Sequence record: PP358550
Strand: one strand, 5' to 3'
From: Escherichia phage FL04
DNA length: 64,000 nt
Each line of letters starts with the position of its first letter. Positions within the stretch are counted from its first letter, which is position 1. The position numbers and the translations under genes are program-made. This document shows positions 3,133 to 33,815 of this stretch, one piece after another. Under the pieces are notes generated by a model. It saw only the letters and a program-made list of their open reading frames with translations. It ran no database searches and was not told where the DNA came from.

Positions 3133-3139
3133 AAATTAG

Positions 3140-3168
3140 TTGACACTACTCTATAATGGTTTTATTAT
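3140..3168 (+). promoter_or_regulatory. sigma70-type early promoter (TTGACA-17-TATTAT)
   Basis: -35 TTGACA 3140-3145, -10 TATTAT 3163-3168; immediately followed by hairpin plus T-run. Confidence 0.5.
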
Positions 3169-3198
3169 GCCTCCCGTCGAAAGATTGGAGGCTTTTTT
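3169..3198 (+). terminator. hairpin plus T-run (terminator/attenuator) whose 3-prime arm contains the GGAGG Shine-Dalgarno of the next gene
   Basis: GCCTCC...GGAGGC stem followed by TTTTTTATT, 4 nt before ATG 3202. Confidence 0.55.
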
Positions 3199-3201
3199 AT
3201 T

Positions 3202-3705
3202 ATGCAATTTACACCAGAAGAACTTAACATCATTGATGAATTGATGAACTCTAAAGAAAATATCGATATGTCGATCCTTAATGGATTGATCGAAAAGACT
3301 GAACGGTTAGTGCATCATGAAGCCTTGTATCGCGGTGTGAGCAAAAGAGAAGGCCGTAAGCTGGATACCTTAATTGTAGGTGATTCTTTCGTTGTAGATC
3401 GTCCTATGAGCTTTACGCCACTGCAATCAACAGCAGAGGACTTTGCAACCGATGTTTATGCAACAGGAAAGATTATTGCAATAAAACCTACCAAGCCTTG
3501 CATGAATTATTACGAACATGCTATTGACCGAGTGGTGTCTAAAGAGTATGACAATCCGACTACTCGACTGTCTTTGTATGCTATGTTGGCAGATGAGCGC
3601 GAGTGCATATACAAGACAGGGACGACCATGATCCTTGATGAGATCGAGGAAGTTTACGCGTGTAATGGCGATCTGATAGAGATTTACAAATTTTCTTTAA
3701 TTTAA
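3202..3705 (+). CDS. putative ADP-ribosyltransferase (ModA/ModB-like)
   Basis: 167 aa; R (LYRGVS), S-x-T (MSFTPLQST) and E-x-E (ADERECI) motifs in the order expected for R-S-E type ARTs. Confidence 0.4.
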   Translation: MQFTPEELNIIDELMNSKENIDMSILNGLIEKTERLVHHEALYRGVSKREGRKLDTLIVGDSFVVDRPMSFTPLQSTAEDFATDVYATGKIIAIKPTKPCMNYYEHAIDRVVSKEYDNPTTRLSLYAMLADERECIYKTGTTMILDEIEEVYACNGDLIEIYKFSLI

Positions 3706-3708
3706 GTG

Positions 3709-3738
3709 TTGACAGCACAAACCAGATAGACAATAATA
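3709..3738 (+). promoter_or_regulatory. sigma70-type early promoter
   Basis: TTGACA 3709-3714, 17-nt spacer, AATAAT-like -10 at 3732-3738. Confidence 0.55.
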
Positions 3739-3766
3739 CACACATACCAACTAAGGAGAATCAATT

Positions 3767-4522
3767 ATGAAACTGTTTGCTTTTAAATCTAACGAAGAAT
3801 TGGCGCTGGTTGTTTTCCGGCTGAACTCTATCATGGCTGGCGCTTCACGTCGCAACAAAGACTTCTCTATGAGCTTAGTCACTGTTCGTAACATTTACCG
3901 TCAGACTCATTGTGTCTATTCAGGTGAGGCTTTCGGTGAAGGTGATGACGGACTCTCCTTAGAGCGCATTGATTGCAATCTGGGATATGTTGATGGCAAT
4001 GTAATTCCGGTTAAACTGAAATACAATTCTTTCCGTGGCAATCACACTATCGAATCTCTTAAAGAGATCCAAGAACTAGGAACTAACGGTAAACTTTCTG
4101 ATGATGAAATTGCCCTACGTGCGAAGTACATCGAGTGGATCGAACTTAACGAGAATCGCATCAAAAATCAGGAAATGGCAATCGAAGAAAAGAAATTAGC
4201 AATCGAGCGCCACAAAAAGCACAACGAACCGGAGAAAGCAGAGGCAGCCGAGCGAGCGATTAAAAATACTCTCTTCCGTATGGAAGAACGTTATCAGAAA
4301 ATTGCAGATCTCAAGCAAGCCCTTAGCGAAATCAACAAGAAAGAAGAAAAACTTAAGGCTATTGCAAACAATACCGAAATCGTGCTAAAATATACCAGCG
4401 TTTTGATTGAATCTCTTTCTAAGTATGAGAACTTAACGCCAGCACAAAAAGAACGCGTGAAATACGGGCTTCCGATTGATGCGTCGTGGATTGAATTGAT
4501 GAAAGCGAAGGTAGGTTTATAA
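3767..4522 (+). CDS. hypothetical protein with C-terminal coiled coil
   Basis: 251 aa; RBS AAGGAGA; N-terminal region has a degenerate HNH-like stretch (SLERIDCNLGYVDGNV) without His; C-terminal half is K/E-rich. Confidence 0.6.
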   Translation: MKLFAFKSNEELALVVFRLNSIMAGASRRNKDFSMSLVTVRNIYRQTHCVYSGEAFGEGDDGLSLERIDCNLGYVDGNVIPVKLKYNSFRGNHTIESLKEIQELGTNGKLSDDEIALRAKYIEWIELNENRIKNQEMAIEEKKLAIERHKKHNEPEKAEAAERAIKNTLFRMEERYQKIADLKQALSEINKKEEKLKAIANNTEIVLKYTSVLIESLSKYENLTPAQKERVKYGLPIDASWIELMKAKVGL

Positions 4523-4836
4523 TGCATGTATTTGCTGTATGTTATCGTGATAAAGACGGATTCTTTCAATACTCAGTGGACGCGAAAGGTCGCGTCCTAA
4601 CTTGCGAAACACATGATGCTGCGTTAGCGTCAATGTGTGATCAGATAGATTATTGTGAGAGTCTATTGGCGGGTGAACCGAAATACAAGGTTGTACCTAA
4701 ACGAAAATTTGGCATAATCCGGTCTTCTGAAATTGTTCGGGATGGTATAGAATATAAAATTCCTGAATATGAAAAAGAACGGGTACGGCGAGAACTCAAT
4801 ACTATCTGTGTTCGCAAGGTGAGGATTTTAGGATAA
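4522..4836 (+). CDS. hypothetical protein (104 aa)
   Basis: Start overlaps upstream stop (TAATG); stop overlaps dda start. Confidence 0.55.
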   Translation: MHVFAVCYRDKDGFFQYSVDAKGRVLTCETHDAALASMCDQIDYCESLLAGEPKYKVVPKRKFGIIRSSEIVRDGIEYKIPEYEKERVRRELNTICVRKVRILG

Positions 4837-6227
4837 TGAGCAGAGTATTAACTTTCGATATGTTAACAGACGGGCAAAAACATGCTTTTGATGTTCTAAT
4901 GAAACGCATTGAACAAAAGAAGCATACAACTGTCCGGGGTGCGGCGGGTACTGGTAAAACCGCAATGATGAAATTCATTGTTCAGGAAATGGTCCGCCGT
5001 GGTGTAACTGGTGTGGTTTTGGCAACGCCTACCCACCAGGCTAAAAAAGTTTTGAGTAAAGCGGTAGGTCGTCAAGCATTTACTTTACATGCACTACTGC
5101 GACTAAACCCGACCAACTATGAAGATACTCAAGTATTTGAGCAAAAAGATACTCCTAAGCTAGATGATGTTCAGATCATCATTGTTGATGAAGCGAGTAT
5201 GGTCGATAAGAAACTATTTGATATTCTCATGAAGAGTATCAACGGTCGAATTGTTATTATTGCCGTGGGTGATCTGTACCAGTTACGACCAGTTGATCCG
5301 AGCGGTGCAACGTCGATCTCTCCTTTCTTCACCGATGAAAGGTTTCAGAATGTAGAACTTACAGAGATTAAACGATCTAATGCGCCAATAATTGATGTGG
5401 CGACCGCTGTCCGTAATGGTAAATGGGTATTCGAAAAGCAGTGCGGTAACGAGGGTGTATTCCATAGCTCAACTCTGCCGGAGTTTATGAAGCATTATTT
5501 CGAAACCGTTAAAACGCCGGAAGACCTTCTAGAAAACCGTATTCTGGCCTACACTAACAAGAGCGTCGAAAAACTCAATGAAATTGTGCGTAAGCGCGTT
5601 TATAACACCGATGAACCAGTGATTGTAGATGAAATTCTGGTTACTCAGGAACCATTGATCGAATATCTGCGAGATGAACGCGGGAAGAAGATTCCCAATG
5701 TTATTTTTAACAATGGTGAGATGATCCGAGTTAAAGAGGTCATCCCGCGTGAATTTACATTACGTTGCACGGGTGTAGATCCGCAACCAGTTTTAGGATA
5801 TACTCTGAAAGTGGAAAGCGTCGATGATGACGAAGACAAAGAAATCCTAAATCAGAAAGTCGGTTTAGATGCAGTCGGAATAACTACAGATAAACCAGAT
5901 TTAGTAGAAATCAACATTCTGACAGAACAACGTCAGAAGAACATTTTCTCTATCTATCTGAATACGGTCGCCGGACAATATCGCGAAATGAAGAAAGAGA
6001 ATCCGAATTTTAAACCGGATTGGGATTCTTTCTGGACGATGAAGCGTATGTTCTTGAATGTAAAAGCATTACCAGCTTGCACTATTCATAAGTCACAAGG
6101 AATCAGCGTAGACCGCGTGTTCCTGTATACCCCTTGCATGTGTACAGATAATGTTGACTTTGAATTGGCAATGCAGTTATTATATGTGGGTGTTACCCGT
6201 GCACGGTATCGTGTAGACTATATTTGA
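4836..6227 (+). CDS. dda: DNA helicase Dda (SF1B)
   Basis: 463 aa; Walker A GAAGTGKT, IIVDEASMVD, VGDLYQLRPV, RSNAPIIDVAT, LYVGVTRARY; collinear with T4 Dda. Confidence 0.93.
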   Translation: MSRVLTFDMLTDGQKHAFDVLMKRIEQKKHTTVRGAAGTGKTAMMKFIVQEMVRRGVTGVVLATPTHQAKKVLSKAVGRQAFTLHALLRLNPTNYEDTQVFEQKDTPKLDDVQIIIVDEASMVDKKLFDILMKSINGRIVIIAVGDLYQLRPVDPSGATSISPFFTDERFQNVELTEIKRSNAPIIDVATAVRNGKWVFEKQCGNEGVFHSSTLPEFMKHYFETVKTPEDLLENRILAYTNKSVEKLNEIVRKRVYNTDEPVIVDEILVTQEPLIEYLRDERGKKIPNVIFNNGEMIRVKEVIPREFTLRCTGVDPQPVLGYTLKVESVDDDEDKEILNQKVGLDAVGITTDKPDLVEINILTEQRQKNIFSIYLNTVAGQYREMKKENPNFKPDWDSFWTMKRMFLNVKALPACTIHKSQGISVDRVFLYTPCMCTDNVDFELAMQLLYVGVTRARYRVDYI

Positions 6228-6238
6228 GGAATATTATT

Positions 6239-6406
6239 ATGATTATGCGAAGTATCCCAGAATTTGACGAAGTGAAAGTATCGTATCATGGCGAATGTGT
6301 ATACATGCATTTCAGGTGGGGTAACTACGGATGGGGTATATCTGGAATCAGCGAGGCCGATTGTATTAATTCCATGATAGATCACTTCACTAAGCGGGGT
6401 TACTGA
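6239..6406 (+). CDS. hypothetical small protein (55 aa)
   Basis: ATG 6239 with GAGGA 8 nt upstream; track ORF begins at an upstream TTG. Confidence 0.45.
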   Translation: MIMRSIPEFDEVKVSYHGECVYMHFRWGNYGWGISGISEADCINSMIDHFTKRGY

Positions 6407-6407
6407 T

Positions 6408-6647
6408 ATGATGATTATTGATGAACTTGATAAACTGTTATGTTTAGATGCCATCGTAACATTCCATCGTGATAAAATTCACGCTGATTATGCACAACAT
6501 GTAATGTCTTTTCGACATAAAGTACAGTCGGTACAGGCGATGGAAAGTTTACTGATTAATGTTTGCAATTATCGGTCAACCAAATGCAATCTAGTGTTAG
6601 ATAAAAACGATCTGGAGTTATTCCGGCACATCGCGGAGGATATTTAA
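6408..6647 (+). CDS. hypothetical protein (79 aa)
   Basis: Tightly packed between upstream ORF and dexA. Confidence 0.5.
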   Translation: MMIIDELDKLLCLDAIVTFHRDKIHADYAQHVMSFRHKVQSVQAMESLLINVCNYRSTKCNLVLDKNDLELFRHIAEDI

Positions 6648-6648
6648 A

Positions 6649-7317
6649 ATGCTTCCAGTGGATTTAATGATTGACTTTGAAAGTTTAGGTTATCCGCCTG
6701 ATGGGGCGGTTATCAATATGGCGGCAATCGGATTTAAAGAAGATCCGCACAATCCACCTACATTTAAAGAACTGGTCGACAATTCCTTTCTGGTAAAATT
6801 TGATATTCCTTCCCAGAAAGGTGTAAGGGTGTTTGATCATGGTGTGGTTGAATGGTGGAAGAATACCGCCTCAGAAGGCATGAGAAAGCAATTAATCACA
6901 AATGGTACGGAAGTATCAACTAAAGAAGGTTTAGCGCGTTTTAACGCATTCTGTGAAGCCGTAGGAGTAGATCCGGTTAAATCCGTAATGTGGTCACGCG
7001 GTAATGCGTTTGATATTCCGTTACTAGTTGATATGATCCGCCGTGCACACAATACACGAGAGACGTTCAGCCTTGAACCTGTGCGATTCTGGAATATCCG
7101 AGATGTTCGCACCGCCATTGAGCGTACATTGATGCATCGCGGGATGTGTGAGTGTCCGTTACCAATGGGTACGCTAGATGGTTTTATCGCACATGATGCA
7201 ATTCATGATTGCGCTCGCGATATTCTTATGCTAATCTATGCACAACGTTATGCTATGGGTCTGGAAGACCTACCAGAAAATCCAGATCCAAATTCAGTTA
7301 AGAAACAAAGGGGATAA
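6649..7317 (+). CDS. dexA: exonuclease A (DexA, DnaQ-like 3-prime to 5-prime exonuclease)
   Basis: 222 aa; N-terminal DFESLG exonuclease motif, later HDAIHDC; T4 synteny (dda-dexA). Confidence 0.8.
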   Translation: MLPVDLMIDFESLGYPPDGAVINMAAIGFKEDPHNPPTFKELVDNSFLVKFDIPSQKGVRVFDHGVVEWWKNTASEGMRKQLITNGTEVSTKEGLARFNAFCEAVGVDPVKSVMWSRGNAFDIPLLVDMIRRAHNTRETFSLEPVRFWNIRDVRTAIERTLMHRGMCECPLPMGTLDGFIAHDAIHDCARDILMLIYAQRYAMGLEDLPENPDPNSVKKQRG

Positions 7318-7318
7318 T

Positions 7319-7492
7319 ATGCCATTATACGATTATTCTTGTGAAGAACACGGTCAATTTCAGAAAATCCGCAAAATTTCCGAACGTGAAAAGGCAGAAT
7401 GCCCTGAATGTGGTAAAGAATGCAAACAGGGATTAACTGCCCCGCGCGGTATTAATGGCGGGTACTATGATAAAAATGTGCGCGTGTCATGA
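7319..7492 (+). CDS. FmdB-like zinc-ribbon protein (57 aa)
   Basis: MPLYDYSCEEHGQF...CPECG pattern typical of FmdB-family Zn-ribbons; not in track at this start (track ORF starts further upstream). Confidence 0.5.
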   Translation: MPLYDYSCEEHGQFQKIRKISEREKAECPECGKECKQGLTAPRGINGGYYDKNVRVS

Positions 7493-22492: not shown

Positions 22493-23149
22493 TTATCTAA
22501 TCCTTCCGAGGATTCTGGCAGATTGATTGCAAAGAGTATCTAAATTCTCAATGTCAATATCCGGTTTATTCTTCCATGAAATGGCGATACTACCAGAATA
22601 GACATTATCGAGATTGAATATAGGACAAGAATACATGAAACCTATATCGATATTCTCTAATTTCTTTTCTCTTGATGGAATATACTGGAAATCTTTATCG
22701 GTAAAATAGGATTTACCTAAAAGATGCCTACGATATTCTTCACTCGTTTTATTGATAGGGAATCCGCCTAAATTTTTTTCATCGATTGTATGCGGTAGCT
22801 TTCCTTCATATGCCACCAAATCAACAAAATAGTTTAGGTTTTTCGGACGAAAACTAAAAACAGCAGAAAAATCGGCATCAGCCGACACATGAACTATCTG
22901 TAACTGCTCCTGTGCTGCATTATCAAAATTGCGGTCTTTCTCTACCTGGAGAACGTGAGCATAAGTCTCATAACGAGTCTCTTTATACAAGGCAAATAAC
23001 TCGTTTTTACTATAGACGACAAATGCTAATATGGACAACACGACGGCAGCAAAAACACGAAGTACGAGCAACTCCGTGCTTTTAGTTGTGAAAATAGCGC
23101 GCAGGACATTTGAGATAGCAAAGTCTTTCCCTTTTTCAGAAACTTGCAT
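22493..23149 (-). CDS. t: holin T
   Basis: 218 aa, same length as T4 holin; conserved blocks EQLQIVH.S..ADFSAV.SFRPKNLNYFVD..AYEGKLP, MYSCP.FNLDN.Y.G, ARILGR; single N-terminal TM. Confidence 0.9.
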   Translation of the reverse strand: MQVSEKGKDFAISNVLRAIFTTKSTELLVLRVFAAVVLSILAFVVYSKNELFALYKETRYETYAHVLQVEKDRNFDNAAQEQLQIVHVSADADFSAVFSFRPKNLNYFVDLVAYEGKLPHTIDEKNLGGFPINKTSEEYRRHLLGKSYFTDKDFQYIPSREKKLENIDIGFMYSCPIFNLDNVYSGSIAISWKNKPDIDIENLDTLCNQSARILGRIR

Positions 23150-23487: not shown

Positions 23488-24270
23488 CTAAACAGCCGGT
23501 CCGTAAATAGCTCCGCGATTTTGCCACGTTGGAGAAGACCCTATAACAGCATATCCAGAATCGCCGCCATTATATTCAGATCCTTGACCACGAATATTAC
23601 ATCTACCTCCTGCGGCGCCTACCTCACCACCGCTTCCACCATTATAGATACCGTTCACGGACCCCGAACCGGGCGCATAAAGAGTACCAGCAGTTGCGCC
23701 TGATTGCATATCAATAGATCCGCCCGGCGCACCAAACGGACGCCCACCGCCACCGCCAAAGGTTAATCTCATTTGTGAAAAAGGAGAATAATACCCACCA
23801 CCGCCACCGCCACCGCCACCTGCAATAGCTCCACCATTATTAATTCTTAGTCTCCCACCAATATCATTTTGAATACAATGCCCACCGGCTGATCCAGGAC
23901 CATTGCTACCGCCATTCCCGCCACGACCATACATCGTTACGCCATGTATATTCAACTGAACATATTCATTCGGTGTATCTCCGTACATAAAGAATAAAGG
24001 AACATCTTTAGAATATGATACTAAATCTCCAGTGATATTAAACACTATAGGTGTACTACCTGCTTCAAAGCATCTATCACGGAACCACTGACCGTTGAAG
24101 TTATGGTCTGCACCAAGTGTATGAATAATTTCTCGCGAGCGACCTGCAAATTGACTCATCCAGCAAGGAACACCCAATCTTAATTGACCAGCCGCTTGAC
24201 TCATCCATCTTTGTCCTGTTTCATTTGCGGCTGAACTTCCAATCCAACCAGGAACACCAACTACTGCCAT
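23488..24270 (-). CDS. 38: receptor-recognising tail fibre adhesin gp38 (T2-type, glycine-rich motifs)
   Basis: 260 aa; N-terminus [48 protein letters not shown] matches T2-type gp38 attachment domain; poly-Gly motifs ([11 protein letters not shown]). Confidence 0.88.
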
Positions 24271-24285
24271 AATTTATACTCCAAA

Positions 24286-24300
24286 GGGGGCGTTGCCCCC
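24286..24300 (-). other. GC hairpin (GGGGGC-N3-GCCCCC) in the 37-38 intercistronic region, no U-tract
   Basis: Perfect 6-bp G/C stem; member of a recurring hairpin family (also 30017, 42099, 54848). Confidence 0.5.
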
Positions 24301-24306
24301 TTGTTG

Positions 24307-27105
24307 TTAGAATTTAAAATATTTACTAATTTTGCGAGCAATTTTAGTAAAGAGAGGCGTTTTCAATTCTTTAATTTCTTCACTCATTTCCTGAATAGCC
24401 TTAATTAAAAGAGCATTCACAGCGGAGTTAGAAATTGTCAGAACATCAGATCCATCAACTTCAACTTTAGACACAGCTTCCGGTAATTCTTTTTCAAGAT
24501 CCTGAGCAATAATACCAACTTCGCGTTTAATCACGCTACGATCTTTAATAGACTTAACTTTATCGTAAGTATAAACTTTCAGTCGGCAAACTTTTTCGAC
24601 CGCTCCATATTCTAATTCTTCTTTATTAATCTTGAGACGGGAGTCAGAACGAATATACACATCGCTAAAGCTACCATTTCCTGGTGTATAAAAGAATCCA
24701 TCATGATGGAATTCAAATATAGCTTGTGGGTGTCCAGCATCAGGAGAAGCCTCCGTGGATCCGACGCGAATGATTGCTTGCCCCCACTGTGATGGAATAC
24801 GACGCATACCAAAGTCAACAGCGGTGCTATATCCTTGATTGGTTATAACGCTTCTTGCTTTAAGAATAGGATAATAACTATCTTGACCAACATAACCATG
24901 ATCAACGAATAATGGAGCTTCTACTCGCCATTGGTTGCCCCAATCACCCGGTTGTCTAGCAATCCATCCAGAACCGTTAATGTGTACACGGTCGCGGTTA
25001 ACGTTAACCATTAAGGTATTTTGCGGGTTTAACGCAATCTCACCATTGTTTGTTATATGTACTGCCGCCTGAGTAGCATAGCTATAAAATGCTAGCGAAT
25101 TATCAGCACCACCTTTACCAATATACCAGTTACCATTCCCGTCTACGTCACCGCGAATATGCAAAGCGTTGCTGGCTGTAGTCGATAATACAATAGCATC
25201 ACCCGGACGTTTAATAGTCAATCGACCAGTTGATTCAACTTCACCAAAGAATTTAGTTTTAATTGCACCAGTCGCTAAAGTACGTTCAGTGGAAAAATGA
25301 GCGCCTTTACTATCTTCTAACTGAATAATGTTATCACGAGCGTTATTGCTATCACCCCAATGATTAAACCGGAAATAATCGCGTGATTGCTTACCACCCG
25401 CTTCAAACGTCAGCGTACCTTTACTTAAATTAACATCACCGCTAAAGGTAGCAGCAAGAGAACCGCCTTTTAATACTAAAGCGTTAGCACCGCTAGTGCC
25501 ACCCAAAGTAACATCGCCAGTTTTTAATTGATAGCGGAAAGGTCTATTTGTATTAAAGTTTCCATCTTGATCATTTTCGTCGGTGGAAAGAATATAAAGA
25601 CTTTCACCATCATTACGGAAAATTGTGCCAAATTTACCGCCATACATACGGAATGCATTAGATGAGCGGAATTTAACTTCTGTTTTAAATGTGGTAGTGT
25701 TATTAAGGTTAACAGTAGAGTTAAAATTGGTAGGAGCACCGAAGTTAACAGCACCATTAAAATCTTGTTGAGCTGTCCATGTGTGGCGACCATCTTCAAG
25801 AACAACACGGCGGACTGTGTAAGTTCTATTTCCAGAATTACCGAACACACGAACGACAAAATAACGGTAGTTTGTCTGGGATACAGTACCGCGCCAAACC
25901 TGAACAGTACGCCCTGTGCTAGTGTGTTCACTAGGACCAACGGAAAACATAACCAGGTTTCCGTCAATCGTCCCCCAATCCATATTTGCTGGCATGTTCT
26001 TTATTTTGTTCAAAGGAACGCTAAACATACTACCAGGAACAAAATCAAAGGTTTGCCAATCTAACTCCGCTAATTGAGCTTTAATACCACCCATACCCAA
26101 AGTAATTGGAAGAGAATAAGATGTATATACTTCGTTCCATACACCCCACGCACCACCAGTATATGCACGCTCAAAAATACGATCGCGAGTAGTTGCACCC
26201 GTTCCGGCAGTAGTAAATTTTTGGAAAATAGCACCACCAGAAGCACGCTGTTTAACTTCCAGCAAACCAACAATAACGGCTGGTAAACCTTCACCAGTAG
26301 GACAGTTAATAACGGCATCAGTGCCTAAAATGTTATATAACCCAGGAGTTTTAAAATCATTCAGATCTCCATCATAGAAAGTCGCTGGTGTGCCATGACC
26401 AACCTGCTTCCATTCCTCCCACTTAGGTGCACTAGCATCCCATGCAGCAGCGAGACAACGAGTATAAACCATACCCATGCGGGTAGTATAACGCTGCGTT
26501 CTTGTGTAGAAACCACCTTCAAATATTTCTAAAAATCCTTGTGCGGCTGATCCTTCTTCTGGATAATGGCGATCAAATGATGCGATTGCGCTTGAACTGT
26601 TTCTCCATAAGCCACAATGTTCTAATTCTCCCAAGCTATCAAGGTCAATCGTTTGTGAAAGTGGACGAGTTGACGCTTGAACATTACGCCACACACCCCA
26701 TGGACCATCTACACCATTCCATTTCGCAGACAAAGAACGGATATAAACGTTACCAGACCGAACAGTATAACGCTGAGTGCCAGCAAATTGACCAGCCACA
26801 AATACTTCTAATACACCTACAGCATTCTCTTCTGGGAATTTATTTGCTGGCTGCGCATTTGTTGAAGTTGATTTAGACCAAACGCCAGTAAATTTACCAG
26901 TAGGTCCATAATTATCTAAATTTGCATCAGATGGCAACTCACCGCGAAAGTGTCCCAAAGTAATTACATTATTGCTGTCATCTTTTGTATATAGTTCTCG
27001 ATCCGCTAGGTTAATAGCAAGTTCACCCGGAGTTAGAATATTCGCATCCGGCTTGCGACCTGCCGTACTTGTTCTTTTAAATTGGATTCTCTGTAAATCT
27101 GCCAT
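24307..27105 (-). CDS. 37: long tail fibre distal subunit gp37 with C-terminal intramolecular chaperone (S74-like) domain
   Basis: 932 aa; N-terminus MADLQRIQFKRTSTAGRKPDANILTPGELAINLADRELYTKDD matches gp37; C-terminal SDVYIRS/DSRLKINKEE...AVNALLIKAIQEM resembles autoproteolytic chaperone domain. Confidence 0.88.
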   Translation of the reverse strand: MADLQRIQFKRTSTAGRKPDANILTPGELAINLADRELYTKDDSNNVITLGHFRGELPSDANLDNYGPTGKFTGVWSKSTSTNAQPANKFPEENAVGVLEVFVAGQFAGTQRYTVRSGNVYIRSLSAKWNGVDGPWGVWRNVQASTRPLSQTIDLDSLGELEHCGLWRNSSSAIASFDRHYPEEGSAAQGFLEIFEGGFYTRTQRYTTRMGMVYTRCLAAAWDASAPKWEEWKQVGHGTPATFYDGDLNDFKTPGLYNILGTDAVINCPTGEGLPAVIVGLLEVKQRASGGAIFQKFTTAGTGATTRDRIFERAYTGGAWGVWNEVYTSYSLPITLGMGGIKAQLAELDWQTFDFVPGSMFSVPLNKIKNMPANMDWGTIDGNLVMFSVGPSEHTSTGRTVQVWRGTVSQTNYRYFVVRVFGNSGNRTYTVRRVVLEDGRHTWTAQQDFNGAVNFGAPTNFNSTVNLNNTTTFKTEVKFRSSNAFRMYGGKFGTIFRNDGESLYILSTDENDQDGNFNTNRPFRYQLKTGDVTLGGTSGANALVLKGGSLAATFSGDVNLSKGTLTFEAGGKQSRDYFRFNHWGDSNNARDNIIQLEDSKGAHFSTERTLATGAIKTKFFGEVESTGRLTIKRPGDAIVLSTTASNALHIRGDVDGNGNWYIGKGGADNSLAFYSYATQAAVHITNNGEIALNPQNTLMVNVNRDRVHINGSGWIARQPGDWGNQWRVEAPLFVDHGYVGQDSYYPILKARSVITNQGYSTAVDFGMRRIPSQWGQAIIRVGSTEASPDAGHPQAIFEFHHDGFFYTPGNGSFSDVYIRSDSRLKINKEELEYGAVEKVCRLKVYTYDKVKSIKDRSVIKREVGIIAQDLEKELPEAVSKVEVDGSDVLTISNSAVNALLIKAIQEMSEEIKELKTPLFTKIARKISKYFKF

Positions 27106-27140: not shown

Positions 27141-27167
27141 ATTTAGAAAAGCGGGGATAATCCCCGC
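27141..27167 (-). terminator. rho-independent terminator after gp36 (- strand)
   Basis: GCGGGGA-TTA-TCCCCGC hairpin followed on - strand by TTTTCTAAAT. Confidence 0.6.
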
Positions 27168-27172
27168 TAGAA

Positions 27173-28663
27173 TTAGAAAGTACCAAAATCAATTACCGCA
27201 TTAAGCGGAACAGCGCCAACATCATCAGGAGTTGGTTTGTGTCCTTCGTGGTATAATTCAAATGTATCGGTGTCCTGAGTATTGTTGCGTGATTTAACGA
27301 AAATAATTTTAGAATCATGTGTGATGCCTAGTTTCTCGTGCGCTTTAATATCACTAACACGATGAATCATTGCTGTGCCATCTAAGCTATTAAGTCCAGC
27401 GTAGCAATTATCACCATTATAGTTAGCTTTTGCGGTACGAACGCCGTTTGCCGCCGGAACAGTTAACGGTCCTGTCATGGTATCGCCAGTTACGTTAACA
27501 TAGCGAATATCAGCCAATTTACGGTGATCTACATAGTTCCATGCAGTCCATGATTCATTAGAACACGAACGCCAGCACATCGGATGGTCAATAGATTCAG
27601 GATAATACACCTGAACAATTCGACGAGTACCGACCGCATCTTCTGGGCGATATACCATCAAAACGCCGTTATAATAGCTATCAGACGGTTTATTAGTACC
27701 TGATCCAGCATTTTCCACACGATAGATACCGCGATTAATAAGAGTGTTCCAATCAACGTTTCCAATGATTGTTGGATTTGCTACCATTGATTTTTTCTCA
27801 AAGTAGCTCAAACGAACCAATTCATTCGGACCAGCAGGATCGTTTGTCGCCAACATTCTAGGCGCTTGCAAGTTACCTTCCATAATATCACCAGCACGTT
27901 TAACCTGTGCATCATTGGTGACATTACCTAGTCCAACATCGGCTTTAGTTGGTTTATTGTTGGTGTGATAAAAACGACCTTCTTTGCCATTAACAAAAAT
28001 GGTAGGCTCATCTTTGCTACGGAATACCAACGTATCAAGAACGTTACCATAATAGATCTTAGTCGCATCAAAATTAATTAAATCACGTTCCCTTGCAATT
28101 AATTTCGAATCAACCGATAGTTTAACAGTGACAGTGTTTAAATTATATGTTCCTGTGAGAGTATCACCGCGACGAGACACCAAATCTAAATCATTATTCG
28201 TTGGTTTATTAACAGGGCTATAGACGCGTTGACCTGTGTCTTTAATGGTTGTCCCTTCGATAGTCCCTTTAGACTTAAATTCGCCCGTTGTGGTGTCAAT
28301 ATACGCCATAATAACGCCATCACGGGCATTAACAAAGCCTATTGACTTCCATGAATGCAAACCCCAGCTTACGCCGTCAAAATTAGCAGCGTCGCTCTGA
28401 CCTTTAAAGATACCATTCTTTTTGGTTTCCCCAGCCGATGCGCTACCTACGCTTAAACCTTCCTCGAAATGAACTTGCTTTTGAAATGTGCCACCTTCGG
28501 ATGCACTAACAGCATCAAAATCGGTAGCCGAAGGTCTATCAAAAGCGGTATAGATTTTATGACCTTTGTAGAAAAGCTGATCCCCCGCTGGCTGGATCGT
28601 CAAGTTTCCTTGCGTCCAAATGGGAGATCCACCTACAGTAGATCCATATTTCAAATCTGCCAT
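27173..28663 (-). CDS. 36: long tail fibre hinge/distal connector gp36 (enlarged, 496 aa)
   Basis: N-terminus MADLKYGSTVGGSPIWTQGN...PAGD matches T4 gp36 N-terminus; C-terminal extension relative to T4 (221 aa). Confidence 0.8.
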   Translation of the reverse strand: MADLKYGSTVGGSPIWTQGNLTIQPAGDQLFYKGHKIYTAFDRPSATDFDAVSASEGGTFQKQVHFEEGLSVGSASAGETKKNGIFKGQSDAANFDGVSWGLHSWKSIGFVNARDGVIMAYIDTTTGEFKSKGTIEGTTIKDTGQRVYSPVNKPTNNDLDLVSRRGDTLTGTYNLNTVTVKLSVDSKLIARERDLINFDATKIYYGNVLDTLVFRSKDEPTIFVNGKEGRFYHTNNKPTKADVGLGNVTNDAQVKRAGDIMEGNLQAPRMLATNDPAGPNELVRLSYFEKKSMVANPTIIGNVDWNTLINRGIYRVENAGSGTNKPSDSYYNGVLMVYRPEDAVGTRRIVQVYYPESIDHPMCWRSCSNESWTAWNYVDHRKLADIRYVNVTGDTMTGPLTVPAANGVRTAKANYNGDNCYAGLNSLDGTAMIHRVSDIKAHEKLGITHDSKIIFVKSRNNTQDTDTFELYHEGHKPTPDDVGAVPLNAVIDFGTF

Positions 28664-28696
28664 AAAGTAACCTCAAAAATTAGTTATAGTTCCGAG

Positions 28697-28704
28697 TATT
28701 TATA
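28697..28704 (-). promoter_or_regulatory. T4-type late promoter TATAAATA (for gp36)
   Basis: Exact TATAAATA on - strand about 35 nt upstream of gp36 ATG. Confidence 0.6.
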
Positions 28705-28820
28705 GAATGTTAACAAAATATCGCTTCGCGACGTGCCGTAGGCACTGACTAATTTTTAACCGAAACAAATTTCTATTATTCTAAAGATCTTTCTTCGTTT
28801 TGGTTACATTTTAACCAACT

Positions 28821-28853
28821 GTATAAAAATAAAGCCGACCACATGGATCGGCT
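28821..28853 (-). terminator. rho-independent terminator after gp35 (- strand)
   Basis: Hairpin AGCCGACC-ACATG-GATCGGCT (reverse complement of the 17566 terminator) followed on - strand by TTATTTTTAT. Confidence 0.7.
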
Positions 28854-28864
28854 TGTTAAAAATG

Positions 28865-30004
28865 TTAATCAACATCGAACTCTTTAAAGTTGTTGGATGT
28901 GATGTGTTTATTATCTCTAGGCAGTTTAAGAAGACTCATTACAGGGTTAGTAAAATCACCGTTATCCTGAATATGAGTTGTTCTAACACCATTAACACCA
29001 AATGAAGTAGGACCAGTAGTTTTGACGACTCCACTGATCGGCGTTATTAGTATGTTTCTAATTTTAACAATACCTTCATTGGAGTTGGTTGGATATCTGA
29101 TACAACCAGTTACTACACTATCAACTCCTTCCGGTACGGTATAGACGGCTTCAAACTTTTCCCATTGGTCTTTTTTGCTGGCATTGTATCGAACACCAGT
29201 TTGATATTGTCCATCGGTGAAGTAGTTGTGATAGAAACGCGCTGTTACGTTGGCTGCGGCTGCGGCACTATCACGGAACAATTCAAAGGATATTGATAGT
29301 TTGTCACCTGCCTTTATGTTAAAATCCTCAAGTGGGGCGCTGGTCTCATCATGAGGCCATTGTATTAGCTCGAAATGTTCGGCATCTTCGCTAACATACT
29401 CAACCGGATAATCTAAAAATCGTTGTGGTGTTCCTGTTATAGCAAGATCATCTATAGTATCATAGACTTTCTCAATTTGTATAGATGAATCTTGTCCTTC
29501 CCCGTTGGTCGCTTGCATCCCTTCACACACAATTTTACCCATTTTAGTAGAATAAATTGCTGCATAGGATACACGAGGCATTTGCTGTAGCAAAATGTGA
29601 TTCGGGAATGATACAGATCCCATCTTAGAAAATACAACATCACTTATCGGATCTGCAAACAATTCTCCATGCGTTGCCATCGCAATGATATAGTCACCTT
29701 TCAGCAAAGAAAGATAATCACGCATTGCCAAAACAGCACCGCGACCATAGAATACCTTTTCTTCGTGTAGTTGTCCAGTTGGAGTAAGAACTTTAAAATT
29801 TAGGCCATTTTCATAGCCAGTGCCAACGATCTCCACTCCATTAAATCTAATCCTTGCTGGTTTGGTAGAATCCGCATTAGATCCGCGTACTTCCAGCTTA
29901 TACATCACAGAGTTATTTTCTGAAATGCTGGTAAATGTCGCAGAGTCTTCGTCGAAATGCGCAAACCTAATTCCAGTGTTGCGTAATTCTATATCTTGTG
30001 TCAT
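28865..30004 (-). CDS. 35: long tail fibre hinge protein gp35
   Basis: 379 aa (T4 gp35 372 aa); position between gp34 and gp36. Confidence 0.7.
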   Translation of the reverse strand: MTQDIELRNTGIRFAHFDEDSATFTSISENNSVMYKLEVRGSNADSTKPARIRFNGVEIVGTGYENGLNFKVLTPTGQLHEEKVFYGRGAVLAMRDYLSLLKGDYIIAMATHGELFADPISDVVFSKMGSVSFPNHILLQQMPRVSYAAIYSTKMGKIVCEGMQATNGEGQDSSIQIEKVYDTIDDLAITGTPQRFLDYPVEYVSEDAEHFELIQWPHDETSAPLEDFNIKAGDKLSISFELFRDSAAAAANVTARFYHNYFTDGQYQTGVRYNASKKDQWEKFEAVYTVPEGVDSVVTGCIRYPTNSNEGIVKIRNILITPISGVVKTTGPTSFGVNGVRTTHIQDNGDFTNPVMSLLKLPRDNKHITSNNFKEFDVD

Positions 30005-30038: not shown

Positions 30039-33000
30039 TTAGTCTTCCCAGATAAAGTCTACGGTACGAGTCAGATTATTGGCGATGATTTTAACATTAC
30101 CAACTTTGATCCAATCACGAACCGTCATAGAGTTCATTAAACCACCTTCTGCAACTACTGCCCCGATTTCCTGAGCGGTAGGCTTATTCTGTTTGGTGTA
30201 AATTTCACCCCATGCGGTCCATTGACCACCAGTACCGGAACGGATATAATGTTTATGAGTACCATCAGGGGACCAAAGCTGGGTAAGCCCGTCCTCGTCA
30301 GTACCCCATTGCATCAGAGTACCGTTTTTCTTCTCTGGATAAGTTTCTTTGATGTTCTGGGTAGTAACTCGCATATTCCAGAAACCGATGTTACCGATTG
30401 CCGGAGCGGTTGCCGCGCTAGCTTCATGCTTAACAGAAACAATAGGCGCATTATCCATAGTCAGCTTACCGACCATTGTATCGCCAGCATTCTTAACAAA
30501 CTGACGGTTAAGAACTTCGTCAGCGTTTCCTGCGTGTACGATCTGATATTTCTGTCCGGAGATCTCTGTAGTTAACGTTTGAGAACCTGCCTTGATGTTA
30601 ACACTTCCACCGTGACCGATATTCAGCATACCATCTGGGGAACGAGTCATTGCCGGATTAGACTGGTCAACAATGTATAAACCGCCTTGTTTCGCATACA
30701 GGTTACGACCTGCAATAAAGTCTCTATATGCTGTCGCGTCGCCATTGTGTTCCATAGCAAAGGCGTAATGCTCGACGACTCCACCATCATTGATTTTACC
30801 GAAAGCAATAGCATCACTATCAACAACTTGCGCTGTTCCAGTACCACCAACGATAATAGACCAAGAGTTTTTCATGCCTTCCGATGCGGTTGTGCCATGC
30901 AGAGTAATTCCGGTGTGACCGTCAACTCCACGCTCCCCCAACACCAGATGACCATTACTCGGAACATCGGTCGAGTTCTTAGTCACAGACAGAGTTTCAA
31001 AGGAACCTGATTTTAAGCACTCTAAATCGCCCTTCACGTTAACGTTTTTATTAAACGTGTAATTGCTCTCTATGATCTGGTCAATGTCTCTACGCGCCCA
31101 TTTAGCGGCCTCTACGTTACCCAATTTCAAACTATTCTGAGCGGTTGCCATCTTAGGTAAGAAATTAGCAAGTGCGTAGTTTAATCCTTTCGGAGTTACC
31201 GCAATCCCGTCATGCTGGTAGTTTCCTAGCTCTTGAGTAGAACCTTGCAGATTATCACCAACAAAACAGTTTTCCTGAGTAGCAACTTTCAAGAAACCAC
31301 GACGCGCTTCGGTTGCTTTCCATGTATCCTCTGTCTGAACAACATATTTGAAGTTCTTCGGAGAAATTGCTACATTAGCCAGTGCACCAGCCACGGTTTC
31401 GGCTTGAGTACCAACTCGGATAATACCTTCTTTACCTTCGGTGGCCTTTTTGCCTTGCAGCTTTTTAGGAGTGATGATTGTAGTATCATCTTGACCAGCA
31501 TCCGTAAGCTGAGTAGTAGCAACTTTAGCGACACCTTTTGTGTCTTCGGTTGCATCCAGACCGCTGATCATGATACCTTGCCACAAATCACCAGTAAGGT
31601 TAAGCCCCTGAGTCGGATCTACTTTCAAACGCTGTGCATTCTCAAAGAAGGTTTTAATCTTCAATGGGGTAGAAATGCGAGCATCGTCACGACCTGCGTC
31701 AAATTCCGACTGAGTTGCAATTTCTGCTAAACCGTGTAAAGTTTCCGTAGCACGGCGAGTATGCAGTTTTTTAGGTGTGATAATATGGTTATCACTTTGG
31801 CCTAAGTTAGTTTCTTCCTGCGTAGCAATTTCAGCGATACCAGTACGGGATTCGGTAGCAGTACGCTTGGTTAACGTGCGAGTAGTGATCAGCAATGCAT
31901 CTTGCGGGGTTGATTCAGTAGCCCCTTGCACTTCCGCGTCAGTTGCCAGATACCCAACACCACGAGAAGTTTCAGTAGCTTTAACTTCGTTGATGTTTTG
32001 CGGAGTAACGATTTTAGCGTGGTCGTCGATGTTATAGATCCCTGTACCAGCTTCACCCCTTCGAGCGGCAGCATTACCGCCTACCTGAACAATTTCAGCG
32101 ATACCAGCAAGATCCTCGGACGCGCGACGTTCTTCTAACTTCTTAGGAGTGATTGCGCGGGTATCGTCTAAACCTTCGTTTGTTTCATGTTGAGTTGCAA
32201 TTTCCATCACACCACGACGGTCTTCGGTAGCAACACAGTCATTTAACTTTTTAGGTGTAACGATAACATCATCCAGGAAGCTGGAACCAGTATCTTGATG
32301 CGTTTCCGCTTGAGTTGCAATGCGAGCAATACCGCGTCGAGTTTCGTTGGCTGTTTTATTAGCCAGAACCTTTGGGGTCACCGCAACTTCGTCGCTAGGA
32401 TTATCTTCATGGTTTTTGTTTGTTTCATCCTGGGTAGCCAGTGCAATTACACCAACACGATCTTTACGAGTCGGATCTACTCGTTCTACAATCGGGTGAG
32501 CATGTGCCACCAACCAGTATTTCTTACCATCATCACCTTCTGAATAAGAGAACTCCAGATAAGGTACATAATCATTTGCAGCGTTGAAAGACAATTCAGA
32601 CACTCCAGTCCATGTATCGGTCCCATTGAATGGGTACTCGCTACGCTTAGGAAACTGAACCATGTTTTTCTGCATAAGGATTTTTGTATCCTCTTCTGAG
32701 GTAATGATTCGGCAAGTCTGGTTTCCGTGCATATACTGCATAGAAACTTGGATACGATCACCCGGCTCGACATTGGTCGGTAAAGTCAAGGTAACATCAC
32801 GATCACCAAATACTGCAACATAGCTATTAGGGGATAAGCGAGTATCACTAATGATAGGATTCAAGCGAACAGACTGATCGCCATCCCACAAACGCCATAA
32901 GTTTTCCGGTTTGTCAAAGATGAATACACCATGACCGCTACGCTTACCAACAATTTCTTTTACCCCGAAAGTACCGATCGATTGTTCTTGCGCACCTTCA

Positions 33001-33779
33001 TGTACTTTTACTGTAACATGGTTGGTTGCAGTCAATCCGTCAAGATCGGTAGTCTGGATCATATCACCGTTATTAGCAAACTTAGGAAGCATCAAAACAA
33101 TGTTACCTAAAGAACTACGACGGAATACCTGATCACCGTTTTGCATCTGAATCGGATCAATAGATGGCTGTGCATATACCCCGCGCGGCTCCGTTCCCGT
33201 CTGGTAAACGTGCCAGCGATTGCGAACAAAAATGAAGTAGTTCATTGCATAAGGGGTAGTACAATACCATTTGCGGTTGTTTACCACACCGTTATGATAG
33301 AACTCATGACCAGCCGCAAGGAACGATAACTCATTAACACCGCACTTGCCACCGATATCTTTTACTGTTATAGTGTCGCCCTCTGCCGGATTAGTAGGCA
33401 TTGAGAATGTCAAGTTTGCAAACTGACAGTCCGCTGCGATATAATCACCGGACTTTAAAGGAGTATCGCCGGAAGTTGCTGCAACATAATCCCAACGTGG
33501 GTCCGTGCGCAGTGCTTGCCATTTAGTCGGGTCAAAGTCACCTGCTGGTTTTGCGATATCTTCTTTTGCATAATACGGACGGTTTTGATAGATTGTAGTT
33601 CCGTATTGATCATAACCGCGAGTTGTGTCATACTGAGTAATACCATTATGGTAATTGAAAAATTCAACGTTGACCGCATCCGTTGATGTGTTTTTATCTG
33701 CGTATGCTACATTGACGACCTTTTCATTACCAGCGTCAAAGCCAAATGTGGCCTTGAAATGTTGAGAAAAATCTGCCAT
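30039..33779 (-). CDS. 34: long tail fibre proximal subunit gp34
   Basis: 1246 aa; N-terminus MADFSQHFKATFGFDAGNEKVVNVAYADKNTSTDAVNVEF resembles T4 gp34; internal repeats of type G(I/V)AxIATQxET. Confidence 0.88.
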   Translation of the reverse strand: MADFSQHFKATFGFDAGNEKVVNVAYADKNTSTDAVNVEFFNYHNGITQYDTTRGYDQYGTTIYQNRPYYAKEDIAKPAGDFDPTKWQALRTDPRWDYVAATSGDTPLKSGDYIAADCQFANLTFSMPTNPAEGDTITVKDIGGKCGVNELSFLAAGHEFYHNGVVNNRKWYCTTPYAMNYFIFVRNRWHVYQTGTEPRGVYAQPSIDPIQMQNGDQVFRRSSLGNIVLMLPKFANNGDMIQTTDLDGLTATNHVTVKVHEGAQEQSIGTFGVKEIVGKRSGHGVFIFDKPENLWRLWDGDQSVRLNPIISDTRLSPNSYVAVFGDRDVTLTLPTNVEPGDRIQVSMQYMHGNQTCRIITSEEDTKILMQKNMVQFPKRSEYPFNGTDTWTGVSELSFNAANDYVPYLEFSYSEGDDGKKYWLVAHAHPIVERVDPTRKDRVGVIALATQDETNKNHEDNPSDEVAVTPKVLANKTANETRRGIARIATQAETHQDTGSSFLDDVIVTPKKLNDCVATEDRRGVMEIATQHETNEGLDDTRAITPKKLEERRASEDLAGIAEIVQVGGNAAARRGEAGTGIYNIDDHAKIVTPQNINEVKATETSRGVGYLATDAEVQGATESTPQDALLITTRTLTKRTATESRTGIAEIATQEETNLGQSDNHIITPKKLHTRRATETLHGLAEIATQSEFDAGRDDARISTPLKIKTFFENAQRLKVDPTQGLNLTGDLWQGIMISGLDATEDTKGVAKVATTQLTDAGQDDTTIITPKKLQGKKATEGKEGIIRVGTQAETVAGALANVAISPKNFKYVVQTEDTWKATEARRGFLKVATQENCFVGDNLQGSTQELGNYQHDGIAVTPKGLNYALANFLPKMATAQNSLKLGNVEAAKWARRDIDQIIESNYTFNKNVNVKGDLECLKSGSFETLSVTKNSTDVPSNGHLVLGERGVDGHTGITLHGTTASEGMKNSWSIIVGGTGTAQVVDSDAIAFGKINDGGVVEHYAFAMEHNGDATAYRDFIAGRNLYAKQGGLYIVDQSNPAMTRSPDGMLNIGHGGSVNIKAGSQTLTTEISGQKYQIVHAGNADEVLNRQFVKNAGDTMVGKLTMDNAPIVSVKHEASAATAPAIGNIGFWNMRVTTQNIKETYPEKKNGTLMQWGTDEDGLTQLWSPDGTHKHYIRSGTGGQWTAWGEIYTKQNKPTAQEIGAVVAEGGLMNSMTVRDWIKVGNVKIIANNLTRTVDFIWED

Positions 33780-33807: not shown

Positions 33808-33815
33808 TATTTATA
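33808..33815 (-). promoter_or_regulatory. T4-type late promoter TATAAATA (for gp34)
   Basis: Exact TATAAATA on - strand about 30 nt upstream of gp34 ATG. Confidence 0.6.

What the first reader, a model, noticed from the sequence alone, without database searches (positions are those of the whole stretch)
27173..28663. Enlarged gp36 (496 aa, more than twice the T4 length)
The N-terminus matches T4 gp36, but the protein carries an extra C-terminal half of about 275 aa, while gp37 is shorter than in T4. Fibre-segment boundaries therefore appear redistributed between gp36 and gp37, which could change fibre length or the hinge.
Basis: partly seen in the sequence, partly recalled or inferred. Interest (0 to 1): 0.35.

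Follow-up and report, generated by a model that had tools for sequence, protein, structure and literature searches.

The report
Long gp36 tail-fibre connector, RB49-type
This is the ordinary gp36 tail-fibre protein of RB49-like (Krischvirus) coliphages, which is 496 instead of about 220 residues long because extra shaft segments and one bead-like "knob" domain sit between its two conserved ends. It is real, but it has been annotated for years.

Summary
A 496-aa ORF (27173-28663, minus strand) lies between g35 and g37. Residues 1-171 match T4 gp36 residues 1-184 (37% identity, E 1e-29). The window is an RB49/Phi1-like Krischvirus. The same 1491-nt gene is present at full length in 58 phage records and is annotated gp36 in RB49, Phi1 and JSE.

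The extra ~275 aa are not a simple C-terminal tail. Both ends are conserved: the knee-side N-module and the C-terminal "...DFGTF" joint. gp37 keeps the T4-type N-terminus (58% identity over 55 aa). The extra material is two internal blocks of beta-rich shaft plus one pyocin-type knob domain (residues ~295-380; TM 0.66-0.67 to R1/R2 pyocin fibres). It is under purifying selection (dN/dS 0.05-0.17).

Across T4-like phages, gp36 falls into length classes of ~155, 215-237 (34 of 39 two-piece loci), 496 and 925-982 aa. One-piece gp36-37 fusions also exist, so the position of the joint does vary. In this phage, however, gp37 (932 aa) has an ordinary length, and the extra region has no significant similarity to T4 gp37. 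"Redistribution" is therefore only partly supported.

Verdict: already known, low interest.

The parts
27173..28663 (-). gene 36: 496-aa gp36, the small distal subunit (distal connector) of the long tail fibre
   Evidence: ORF. Matches phrog_16472 over 1-496 and phrog_1425 'hinge connector ... distal connector'. 94-96% nt identity to gp36 of Phi1, RB49, GEC-3S and others. Lies between g35 and g37.
28151..28663 (-). residues 1-171: conserved gp36 N-terminal (knee-side) module
   Evidence: 37% identity to T4 gp36 residues 1-184, E 1e-29. Pfam PF03903 matches residues 57-154 at 21.4 bits, below the 26-bit cut-off. 1440 phage records match the full-length gp36 query, most of them only over these residues 1-171. 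The first ~50 aa are shared with one-piece distal fibres of the RB43/RB16 type.
27914..28150 (-). residues 172-250: extra beta-rich shaft block, ending in the linker FYHTNNKPTKAD; the first internal insertion relative to T4
   Evidence: No counterpart in T4 gp36. Beta strands in the low-confidence AF2 model. The linker motif at residue 231 recurs at 38, 148 and 471. Collinear with the 900-1000-aa gp36 of Serratia phages.
27782..27913 (-). residues 251-294: segment homologous to the C-terminal part of short gp36 proteins (GDxMxGNLxAP ... VRLSY)
   Evidence: Aligns to T4 gp36 residues 172-215, E 8e-6. Aligns to short gp36 proteins P0146 and P0134 at 42-52% identity, E 8e-13 to 8e-15.
27524..27781 (-). 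residues 295-380: pyocin-type knob domain (a 'bead' on the fibre)
   Evidence: It is the only confident part of the full-length AF2 model (pLDDT 64-85). The separate domain model has pLDDT 78.8 and pTM 0.72. Top Foldseek PDB hits are the R1 and R2 pyocin fibres 6cl5 and 6ct8 (TMq 0.66-0.67, rmsd 2.0-2.4 A, probability 1.00). The sequence profile hits 9m8o Gp18, 6ct8 and 6cl6 at E 0.002-0.011. In BFVD the fold occurs in many phage tail fibres.
27212..27523 (-). residues 381-484: second extra shaft block (GDTMTGPLTVP ... YHEGHKPTPDD)
   Evidence: Beta strands in the low-confidence AF2 model. Weak similarity to the C-terminal shaft of gp34: T4 gp34 E 0.02 and Yersinia phage JC221 gp34 at 37% identity over residues 376-487. 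The window carries a divergent allele of this block (dS 1.0-2.7 against relatives, dN/dS 0.05-0.14).
27176..27211 (-). residues 485-496 (AVPLNAVIDFGTF): conserved C-terminal joint that presumably docks on the gp37 N-terminus
   Evidence: D[FY]G[TYSAE][FY] or a close variant ends nearly every two-piece gp36 from 154 to 982 aa. Residues 458-496 are 46% identical to the C-terminus of a 185-aa gp36.
28697..28704 (-). TATAAATA late-promoter box, 34 nt upstream of the g36 start
   Evidence: only 3 copies in 64 kb, and two of them lie just upstream of g34 and g36. The function is inferred from the established T4 late-promoter consensus.
27146..27167 (-). GC-rich hairpin (GCGGGGA-TTA-TCCCCGC) plus TTTTC, immediately after the g36 stop codon
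   Evidence: Read directly from the sequence. Not listed by the consensus scan. Terminator function is inferred.
26941..27105 (-). gp37 residues 1-55: conserved partner side of the gp36/gp37 joint
   Evidence: 58% identity to T4 gp37 residues 1-55, E 2e-16, and 72% identity to Phi1 gp37 residues 1-50. The same N-terminal motif follows every two-piece gp36.

Best explanation
This is the normal gene 36 of an RB49-like (Krischvirus) T4-type phage. Its product trimerises and forms the upper part of the distal half-fibre (the "shin"). The conserved N-terminal module (residues 1-171) binds at the gp35/gp34 knee. The conserved C-terminal ...AVIDFGTF end binds the conserved N-terminus of gp37. Between these two fixed ends this lineage carries about 275 extra residues per chain, built from standard tail-fibre modules bounded by short linker motifs (Y..NKPT..D and GDxMxG):
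- a beta-rich shaft block (172-250);
- the segment shared with short gp36 proteins (251-294);
- one pyocin-type knob domain (295-380);
- a second shaft block (381-484).

The expected effect is purely architectural. The gp36 part of the shin would be about 15 nm longer than in T4 and would carry one more bead, which places the gp36/gp37 joint further from the knee.

Shown here: homology of both ends, synteny, modular composition, the knob fold, purifying selection, and conservation throughout the genus. Inferred: trimeric fibre geometry, the added length, and the docking roles of the two ends (taken from the T4 assembly pathway).
For: - Identity and synteny: the gene order g34-g35-g36-g37-g38-t is shown. 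The gene is 94-96% nt identical and full-length in 58 records, and is annotated gp36 in Phi1, RB49, JSE and GEC-3S.
- Conserved ends.
- Deeper conservation of the architecture: residues 1-~490 are collinear (E 1e-44 to 1e-63, ~30-33% identity) with the first ~500 aa of the 900-1000-aa gp36 of Serratia phages, including the knob at the same position. Homologues of 492-508 aa at 50-65% identity keep the whole architecture.
- Knob fold.
- Linker motifs, with no large internal duplication.
- Purifying selection on every segment (dN/dS 0.05-0.17).
- Assembly order in T4 (gp36 binds the gp37 N-terminus, then gp35 binds gp36): PMC3004832.
- About 0.055 nm per residue from the gp34 crystal structure (residues 744-1289, just over 30 nm): PMC5537660.
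- The pyocin knob has been described as a mobile pseudo-domain shared across tail-fibre classes: PMC12143355.
Against: - There is no experimental structure or EM measurement of an RB49-type fibre, and no gp36 entry in the PDB by sequence.
- The monomer AF2 model is unreliable outside the knob (mean pLDDT 40), so the shaft geometry and the ~15 nm estimate are inferences.
- The Pfam gp36 model scores below its curated cut-off (21.4 against 26 bits).
- A binding role for the knob is not excluded.
Confidence: 0.78

Rival explanations
1. Compensatory redistribution. Fibre material that belongs to gp37 in T4 has moved into gp36, so the overall length of the distal half-fibre is kept while the inter-subunit joint shifts.
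For: - The joint position clearly varies across the family, and Serratia phages pair a 925-982-aa gp36 with a 513-563-aa gp37.
- gp36 + gp37 sums are similar: 1421-1476 aa for Krischvirus, 1488-1495 for the Serratia phages, and 1510 for Acinetobacter phage PhT2 (234 + 1276).
- If the roughly 110-aa S74 chaperone domain of gp37 (Pfam match at residues 820-878) is cleaved off, as it is in related fibres, the window's total of about 1316 aa is close to T4's 1247 aa (my arithmetic).
Against: - The extra region has no significant similarity to T4 or Phi1 gp37.
- The gp37 N-terminus is in the same register as in T4.
- Among phages with a short gp36, gp37 already ranges from 609 to 1508 aa, and Krischvirus gp37 (925-980 aa) lies near the median.
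- The Pearson correlation (r = -0.42) rests on two related Serratia loci. The Spearman correlation is +0.16 (p = 0.34).
- The gp36 + gp37 sum ranges from 824 to 1738 aa, so total length is not conserved in general.
Confidence: 0.15
2. The knob domain in the extension is a functional binding site. It could be a docking point for fibritin whiskers during fibre retraction, or an auxiliary contact with host surface polysaccharide. On this reading it is more than a passive bead.
For: - The same fold occurs in the receptor-binding fibres of R-type pyocins and in many phage receptor-binding proteins.
- The knob is conserved (dN/dS about 0-0.1).
- In T4 the fibritin N-terminus is thought to bind near the gp36/gp37 junction (PMC3004832).
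- RB49-like phages use O-antigens as receptors (PMC9569957).
Against: - That paper attributes O-antigen recognition genetically to gp38, and gp36 is not mentioned.
- Knob domains recur as structural beads along fibre shafts far from the tip, for example in gp34 and gp37 of this same phage.
- gp36 is nearly invariant within the genus while host range varies, which is the opposite of what is expected for a receptor-binding part.
Confidence: 0.06
3. Artefact: the 496-aa ORF is a sequencing or annotation fusion of a short gp36 with a downstream gene.
For: Only the fact that T4 gp36 is 221 aa.
Against: - The identical reading frame is present in 58 independent genomes.
- Every segment is under purifying selection.
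- The conserved gp36 C-terminal joint lies at the very end of the ORF.
- The architecture is shared at about 30% identity with Serratia phage proteins.
Confidence: 0.01

Closest known systems
gp36 of RB49, Phi1, JSE and other Krischvirus phages (e.g. ABR24759.1 in EF437941; gene 36 in AY343333)
   Same: Same length (496 aa), same position between g35 and g37, and 96% aa identity to Phi1 gp36. It is the same protein.
   Different: The window's residues 393-496 are a divergent allele (dS 1.0-2.7 against Phi1, compared with 0.05-0.10 for residues 1-392). The downstream gp37 tip plus gp38 module is of Tequatrovirus type rather than RB49 type.
T4 gp36 (221 aa; Pfam PF03903 Phage_T4_gp36)
   Same: N-terminal module (37% identity over about 171 aa), the GDxMxGNLxAP segment, the C-terminal DFGxx end, the gene position, a late-promoter box upstream, and a gp37 partner with the same N-terminus.
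   Different: About 275 extra residues in two internal blocks, including a knob domain that T4 gp36 lacks. The Pfam score is below the curated threshold.
Long gp36 of Serratia phages Muldoon and PS2 (925 aa) and 92A1, 4S and WSPA (~980-1000 aa)
   Same: Collinear over the first ~500 aa, with the knob at the same position, and the same C-terminal joint.
   Different: These proteins carry roughly 430-490 further residues before the joint and are paired with a short gp37 (513-563 aa). Identity to the window protein is only about 30-33%.
Knob domains of R1/R2 pyocin fibres (PDB 6cl5, 6ct8, 6cl6)
   Same: The fold of residues ~295-380 (TM 0.66-0.67, rmsd 2.0-2.4 A, 23-25% identity) and the conserved G.L.V...Q.Y...WR...W..W pattern.
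   Different: In pyocins the knobs lie near the receptor-binding foot of a single-protein fibre. Here a single knob lies in the upper shin, far from the tip.
One-piece distal half-fibres of RB43/RB16, Aeromonas and KVP40-type phages
   Same: They begin with the same gp36-type N-terminus (about 50% identity over the first 50 aa).
   Different: They have no gp36/gp37 joint. A single chain of 599-1420 aa runs to the tip, often ending in an S74 chaperone domain.

Membership tests
T4-type gp36 (small distal long-tail-fibre subunit) | Significant sequence homology to the T4 gp36 N-terminal region | tested here: met
   BLASTP: 37% identity over residues 1-171, E 1e-29. phrog_1425 E 1.4e-54.
T4-type gp36 (small distal long-tail-fibre subunit) | Pfam PF03903 (Phage_T4_gp36) at or above the gathering score | tested here: not met
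   21.4 bits against a cut-off of 26, E 2.6e-4, residues 57-154. Close homologues P0003-P0011 do carry a precomputed PF03903 hit. This is a sensitivity limit of the model and does not count as evidence against homology.
T4-type gp36 (small distal long-tail-fibre subunit) | Gene lies between g35 (knee-cap) and g37 (large distal subunit) in the late tail-fibre operon | tested here: met
   g34 30039-33779, g35 28865-30004, g36 27173-28663, g37 24307-27105, g38 23488-24270, t 22493-23149. TATAAATA lies upstream.
T4-type gp36 (small distal long-tail-fibre subunit) | Conserved C-terminal joint (…D[FY]Gxx*), followed by a gp37 with the MA..L..IxFxR…GEL.INL N-terminus | tested here: met
   The protein ends AVIDFGTF. 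gp37 residues 1-55 are 58% identical to T4. The pattern holds in nearly all of the 39 complete two-piece loci.
T4-type gp36 (small distal long-tail-fibre subunit) | Homotrimer incorporated in the virion fibre between gp35 and gp37 | not testable with these tools
   This needs virion proteomics or EM. Only a monomer prediction was possible, and it was poor outside the knob.
Pyocin-knob domain (residues ~295-380 only) | Fold similarity to the knob domains of R-type pyocin fibres | tested here: met
   Foldseek: 6cl5_A and 6ct8 at TMq 0.66-0.67, rmsd 2.0-2.4 A, probability 1.00 (E 2.7e-3) on a model with pLDDT 78.8.
Pyocin-knob domain (residues ~295-380 only) | Sequence-profile match to known knob domains or curated models | tested here: inconclusive
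   The profile against PDB gives E 0.002-0.011 to 9m8o Gp18, 6ct8 and 6cl6. NCBIfam gave no hit at E <= 0.1.

The most novel reading that the evidence does not exclude
The knob and shaft insertion is more than filler. By moving the gp36/gp37 joint about 15 nm down the shin and adding a knob there, Krischvirus fibres would dock differently on the whiskers or tail when retracted. Alternatively, the knob could make an auxiliary contact with surface polysaccharide, which would contribute to the unusual ability of RB49-like phages to work through O-antigen layers.
Probability: 0.06. Interest if true: 0.5.

Novelty: already known. Interest (0 to 1): 0.12.

Why it matters
It matters little on its own. 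The gene is the standard, annotated gp36 of a well-sampled phage genus.

The useful by-product is a clear picture of gp36 as a protein with two fixed ends and a modular middle:
- gp36 comes in discrete length classes (~155, ~220, ~496 and ~925-980 aa) and also as one-piece fusions;
- the gp36/gp37 joint motifs are recognisable in all two-piece forms.

This is practical for annotating T4-like tail-fibre loci, where long gp36 forms are often labelled only "tail fiber protein" or "hypothetical". It may also help in choosing splice points when engineering chimeric fibres.

Tried and rejected
- Similarity of the extra region to gp37: none that is significant against T4 gp37 (best E 0.24), the window's own gp37 (E 0.79) or Phi1 gp37 (no hit). 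A literal transfer of gp37 sequence is rejected.
- Large internal duplication within gp36: hhalign of sub-alignments matched only the 14-22-residue linker motifs. Rejected.
- Full-length monomer AF2 model: mean pLDDT 40, usable only for the knob. A Foldseek search with the whole model gave only low-TM hits. I therefore remodelled the knob alone.
- PDB sequence search with the full protein: no gp36 structure found, only a chance hit at E 0.33.
- NCBIfam scan of gp34, gp36 and gp37: no hits.
- Correlation between gp36 and gp37 lengths across 39 loci: the Pearson value (-0.42) depends on two related Serratia loci, and the Spearman value is not significant. This is not accepted as evidence of compensation.
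- Literature: I found no paper that discusses the enlarged RB49-type gp36. Trojet 2011 states gp36 is ~220 aa and shows RB49 only in a figure I could not see. Efimov 2022 does not mention gp36.

Full report
**What is there**

The window carries a complete T4-type long-tail-fibre operon on the minus strand:

| Gene | Coordinates | Length | Notes |
|---|---|---|---|
| g34 | 30039-33779 | 1246 aa | proximal subunit |
| g35 | 28865-30004 | 379 aa | knee-cap |
| flagged ORF (g36) | 27173-28663 | 496 aa | this finding |
| g37 | 24307-27105 | 932 aa | C-terminal Peptidase_S74 chaperone domain |
| g38 | 23488-24270 | 260 aa | T2-type adhesin |
| t | 22493-23149 | 218 aa | holin |

The flagged ORF has these signals:
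- an ATG start with GAGG 7 nt upstream;
- a TATAAATA late-promoter box at 28697-28704, one of only three in the window, another of which lies just upstream of g34;
- a GC-rich hairpin with a T-run directly after its stop codon.

**Identity of the phage and the gene**

A megablast search with the ORF finds 58 phage records. All cover the whole 1491 nt at 85-96% identity. All that I examined are RB49-like Krischvirus phages (RB49, Phi1, JSE, GEC-3S, ECD7 and others). In the annotated records the gene is called "gp36 hinge connector of long tail fiber distal connector".

Phi1 gp34, gp35 and gp36 are 95%, 99% and 96% identical in protein sequence to those of the window. gp37 matches only in patches. 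The 496-aa gp36 is therefore the standard, long-deposited form in this genus. A predicted structure of the phage kvi orthologue is already in BFVD.

**Relationship to T4 gp36**

- Residues 1-171 align with T4 gp36 residues 1-184 (37% identity, E 1e-29).
- T4's C-terminal segment (residues 172-215) aligns with residues 251-294 (E 8e-6).
- Both proteins end in DFG[YT][YF].
- Short gp36 proteins from other T4-like phages give the same picture. Their C-terminal halves align to residues 223-286 (E 8e-13 to 8e-15), and the tail of a 185-aa form aligns to residues 458-496 (E 2e-8).

The extra ~275 residues are therefore two internal blocks between two conserved ends. They are not an appended C-terminal half.

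The partner side is conserved too. gp37 residues 1-55 are 58% identical to T4 gp37 residues 1-55.

**What the extra part is made of**

Four Y..[ND][KR]P[TS]..D linkers (at residues 38, 148, 231 and 471) and three GDxMxG motifs (at 166, 258 and 393) divide the chain into modules. Profile-profile self-comparison finds nothing repeated beyond these linkers.

The full-length monomer AF2 model is poor (mean pLDDT 40), as expected for a trimeric fibre. The exception is residues ~293-380. Modelled alone with 14 diverse homologues, this region reaches pLDDT 78.8 and pTM 0.72. Evidence on its fold:
- Its best PDB matches are the knob domains of the R1 and R2 pyocin fibres (6cl5, 6ct8; TMq 0.66-0.67, rmsd 2.0-2.4 A).
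- The sequence profile gives E 0.002-0.011 to the same proteins.
- The fold is widespread in phage tail fibres.
- It has been described as a mobile pseudo-domain across fibre classes (PMC12143355).
- Weaker matches to the same profile occur in this phage's own gp34 C-terminus and in gp37.

Every segment is under purifying selection (dN/dS 0.05-0.17 against four relatives).

**Family-wide context**

An exhaustive HMMER search with the N-module found it at the N-terminus of proteins of 185 to more than 1400 aa. In 59 IMG/VR loci plus annotated GenBank loci, two architectures appear.

1. Two-piece distal half-fibres. Nearly every gp36 ends in D[FY]Gxx, and the next gene starts MA..L..IxFxR...GEL.INL. 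The 39 complete two-piece loci fall into these gp36 length classes:

| gp36 length | Loci | Phages |
|---|---|---|
| 154-155 aa | 2 | |
| 215-237 aa | 34 | most T4-like genera |
| 496 aa | 3 | Krischvirus |
| 925-982 aa | 2 | Serratia phages Muldoon/PS2 and 92A1 |

2. One-piece fibres in RB43/RB16-, Aeromonas- and KVP40-type phages. These start with the gp36-type N-terminus and run to the tip.

The window protein is collinear (E 1e-44 to 1e-63) with the first ~500 residues of the 900-1000-aa forms, with the knob at the same place. Metagenomic homologues of 492-508 aa at 50-65% identity keep the whole architecture.

**Testing the "redistribution" idea**

The joint position clearly varies across the family. 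In the Serratia phages a very long gp36 is paired with a short gp37 (925/563 and 982/513 aa). For Krischvirus, however, the case is weak:
- gp37 (925-980 aa; 932 here) lies near the median of the 609-1508 aa range found with short gp36.
- The gp36 + gp37 sum ranges from 824 to 1738 aa overall.
- The negative Pearson correlation depends on the two Serratia loci, and the Spearman correlation is not significant.
- The extra region shows no similarity to T4 or Phi1 gp37.

I therefore read the enlargement as a lineage-specific modular expansion of gp36. I do not read it as a compensated transfer from gp37. The conserved N-module gives no hint of an altered hinge.

**Likely mechanism**

By analogy with the T4 assembly pathway, gp36 trimers bind the gp37 N-terminus and gp35 then binds gp36 (PMC3004832). 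On that basis the protein forms the upper shin. At about 0.055 nm per residue (gp34 residues 744-1289 span about 30 nm; PMC5537660), the insertion should add roughly 15 nm and one bead. It would also move the gp36/gp37 joint, the presumed fibritin N-terminus contact in T4, further from the knee. The length estimate and the docking roles are inferences. No structure of any gp36 is in the PDB by sequence.

**Verdict**

The feature is already known: it has been annotated in RB49-type genomes for years, although its size is not discussed in the papers I could search. Interest is low.

Noticed in passing
window 23488-25100 (gp38 plus the C-terminal ~280 aa of gp37): This receptor-binding tip module is about 95% nt identical to many Tequatrovirus (T2-type) phages such as JK23, KarlGJung and fPS-65. 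It is 96-99% identical to only two Krischvirus-sized records (KMB43, LF73P4). In Phi1 a small ORF follows g37, and in RB49 likewise, with g38 sitting elsewhere in that genome (PMC3157838). This looks like a recent inter-genus swap of the gp37 tip plus gp38 adhesin.
   Followed up: partly
window 27176-27487 (gp36 residues 393-496): This is a mosaic patch inside gp36. It has dS 1.0-2.7 against Phi1, L010 and L011, whereas residues 1-392 have dS 0.03-0.13 against Phi1 and L010; L011 also diverges over residues 1-171 (dS 0.58). Phage UPWr_E1 is 99.1% identical in protein sequence over residues 172-496 and so likely shares the window's allele. The patch does not co-vary strictly with the gp37 N-terminus allele.
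   Followed up: partly
window 33808-33815 and 28697-28704 (minus strand): Only three TATAAATA boxes occur in 64 kb. Two of them lie 29-34 nt upstream of the g34 and g36 start codons, matching the T4 arrangement of late promoters.
   Followed up: partly
window 28664-28864 (g35-g36 intergenic region, 201 bp): The spacer is unusually long and holds a strong terminator-like hairpin (28832-28854) right after g35 and a second small hairpin (28720-28732), ahead of the late-promoter box. T4 has only about 60 bp here.
   Followed up: no
window 28865-30004 (gp35): There is a weak Pfam hit to the ILEI (interleukin-like EMT inducer) domain at residues 66-133 (E 6e-4, below the cut-off). This agrees with the ILEI/PANDER-like domain reported for T4 gp35 in bioRxiv 10.64898/2026.03.06.709160.
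   Followed up: no
L006 (RB43) 2669-7439; also L046-L048, L053, L063: RB43/RB16-type phages carry two tandem one-piece distal-fibre genes (about 715-760 and 734-822 aa). Both start with the gp36-type N-terminus and both end in an S74 chaperone-like C-terminus. This implies two alternative distal half-fibres and no gp36/gp37 joint.
   Followed up: partly
window 24307-27105 (gp37 residues ~60-330): By eye, the N-terminal third of gp37 contains three tandem knob-like repeats (…W..W..V motifs). Only the third (residues 245-327) reaches significance with the gp36 knob profile (iE 9e-4).
   Followed up: partly
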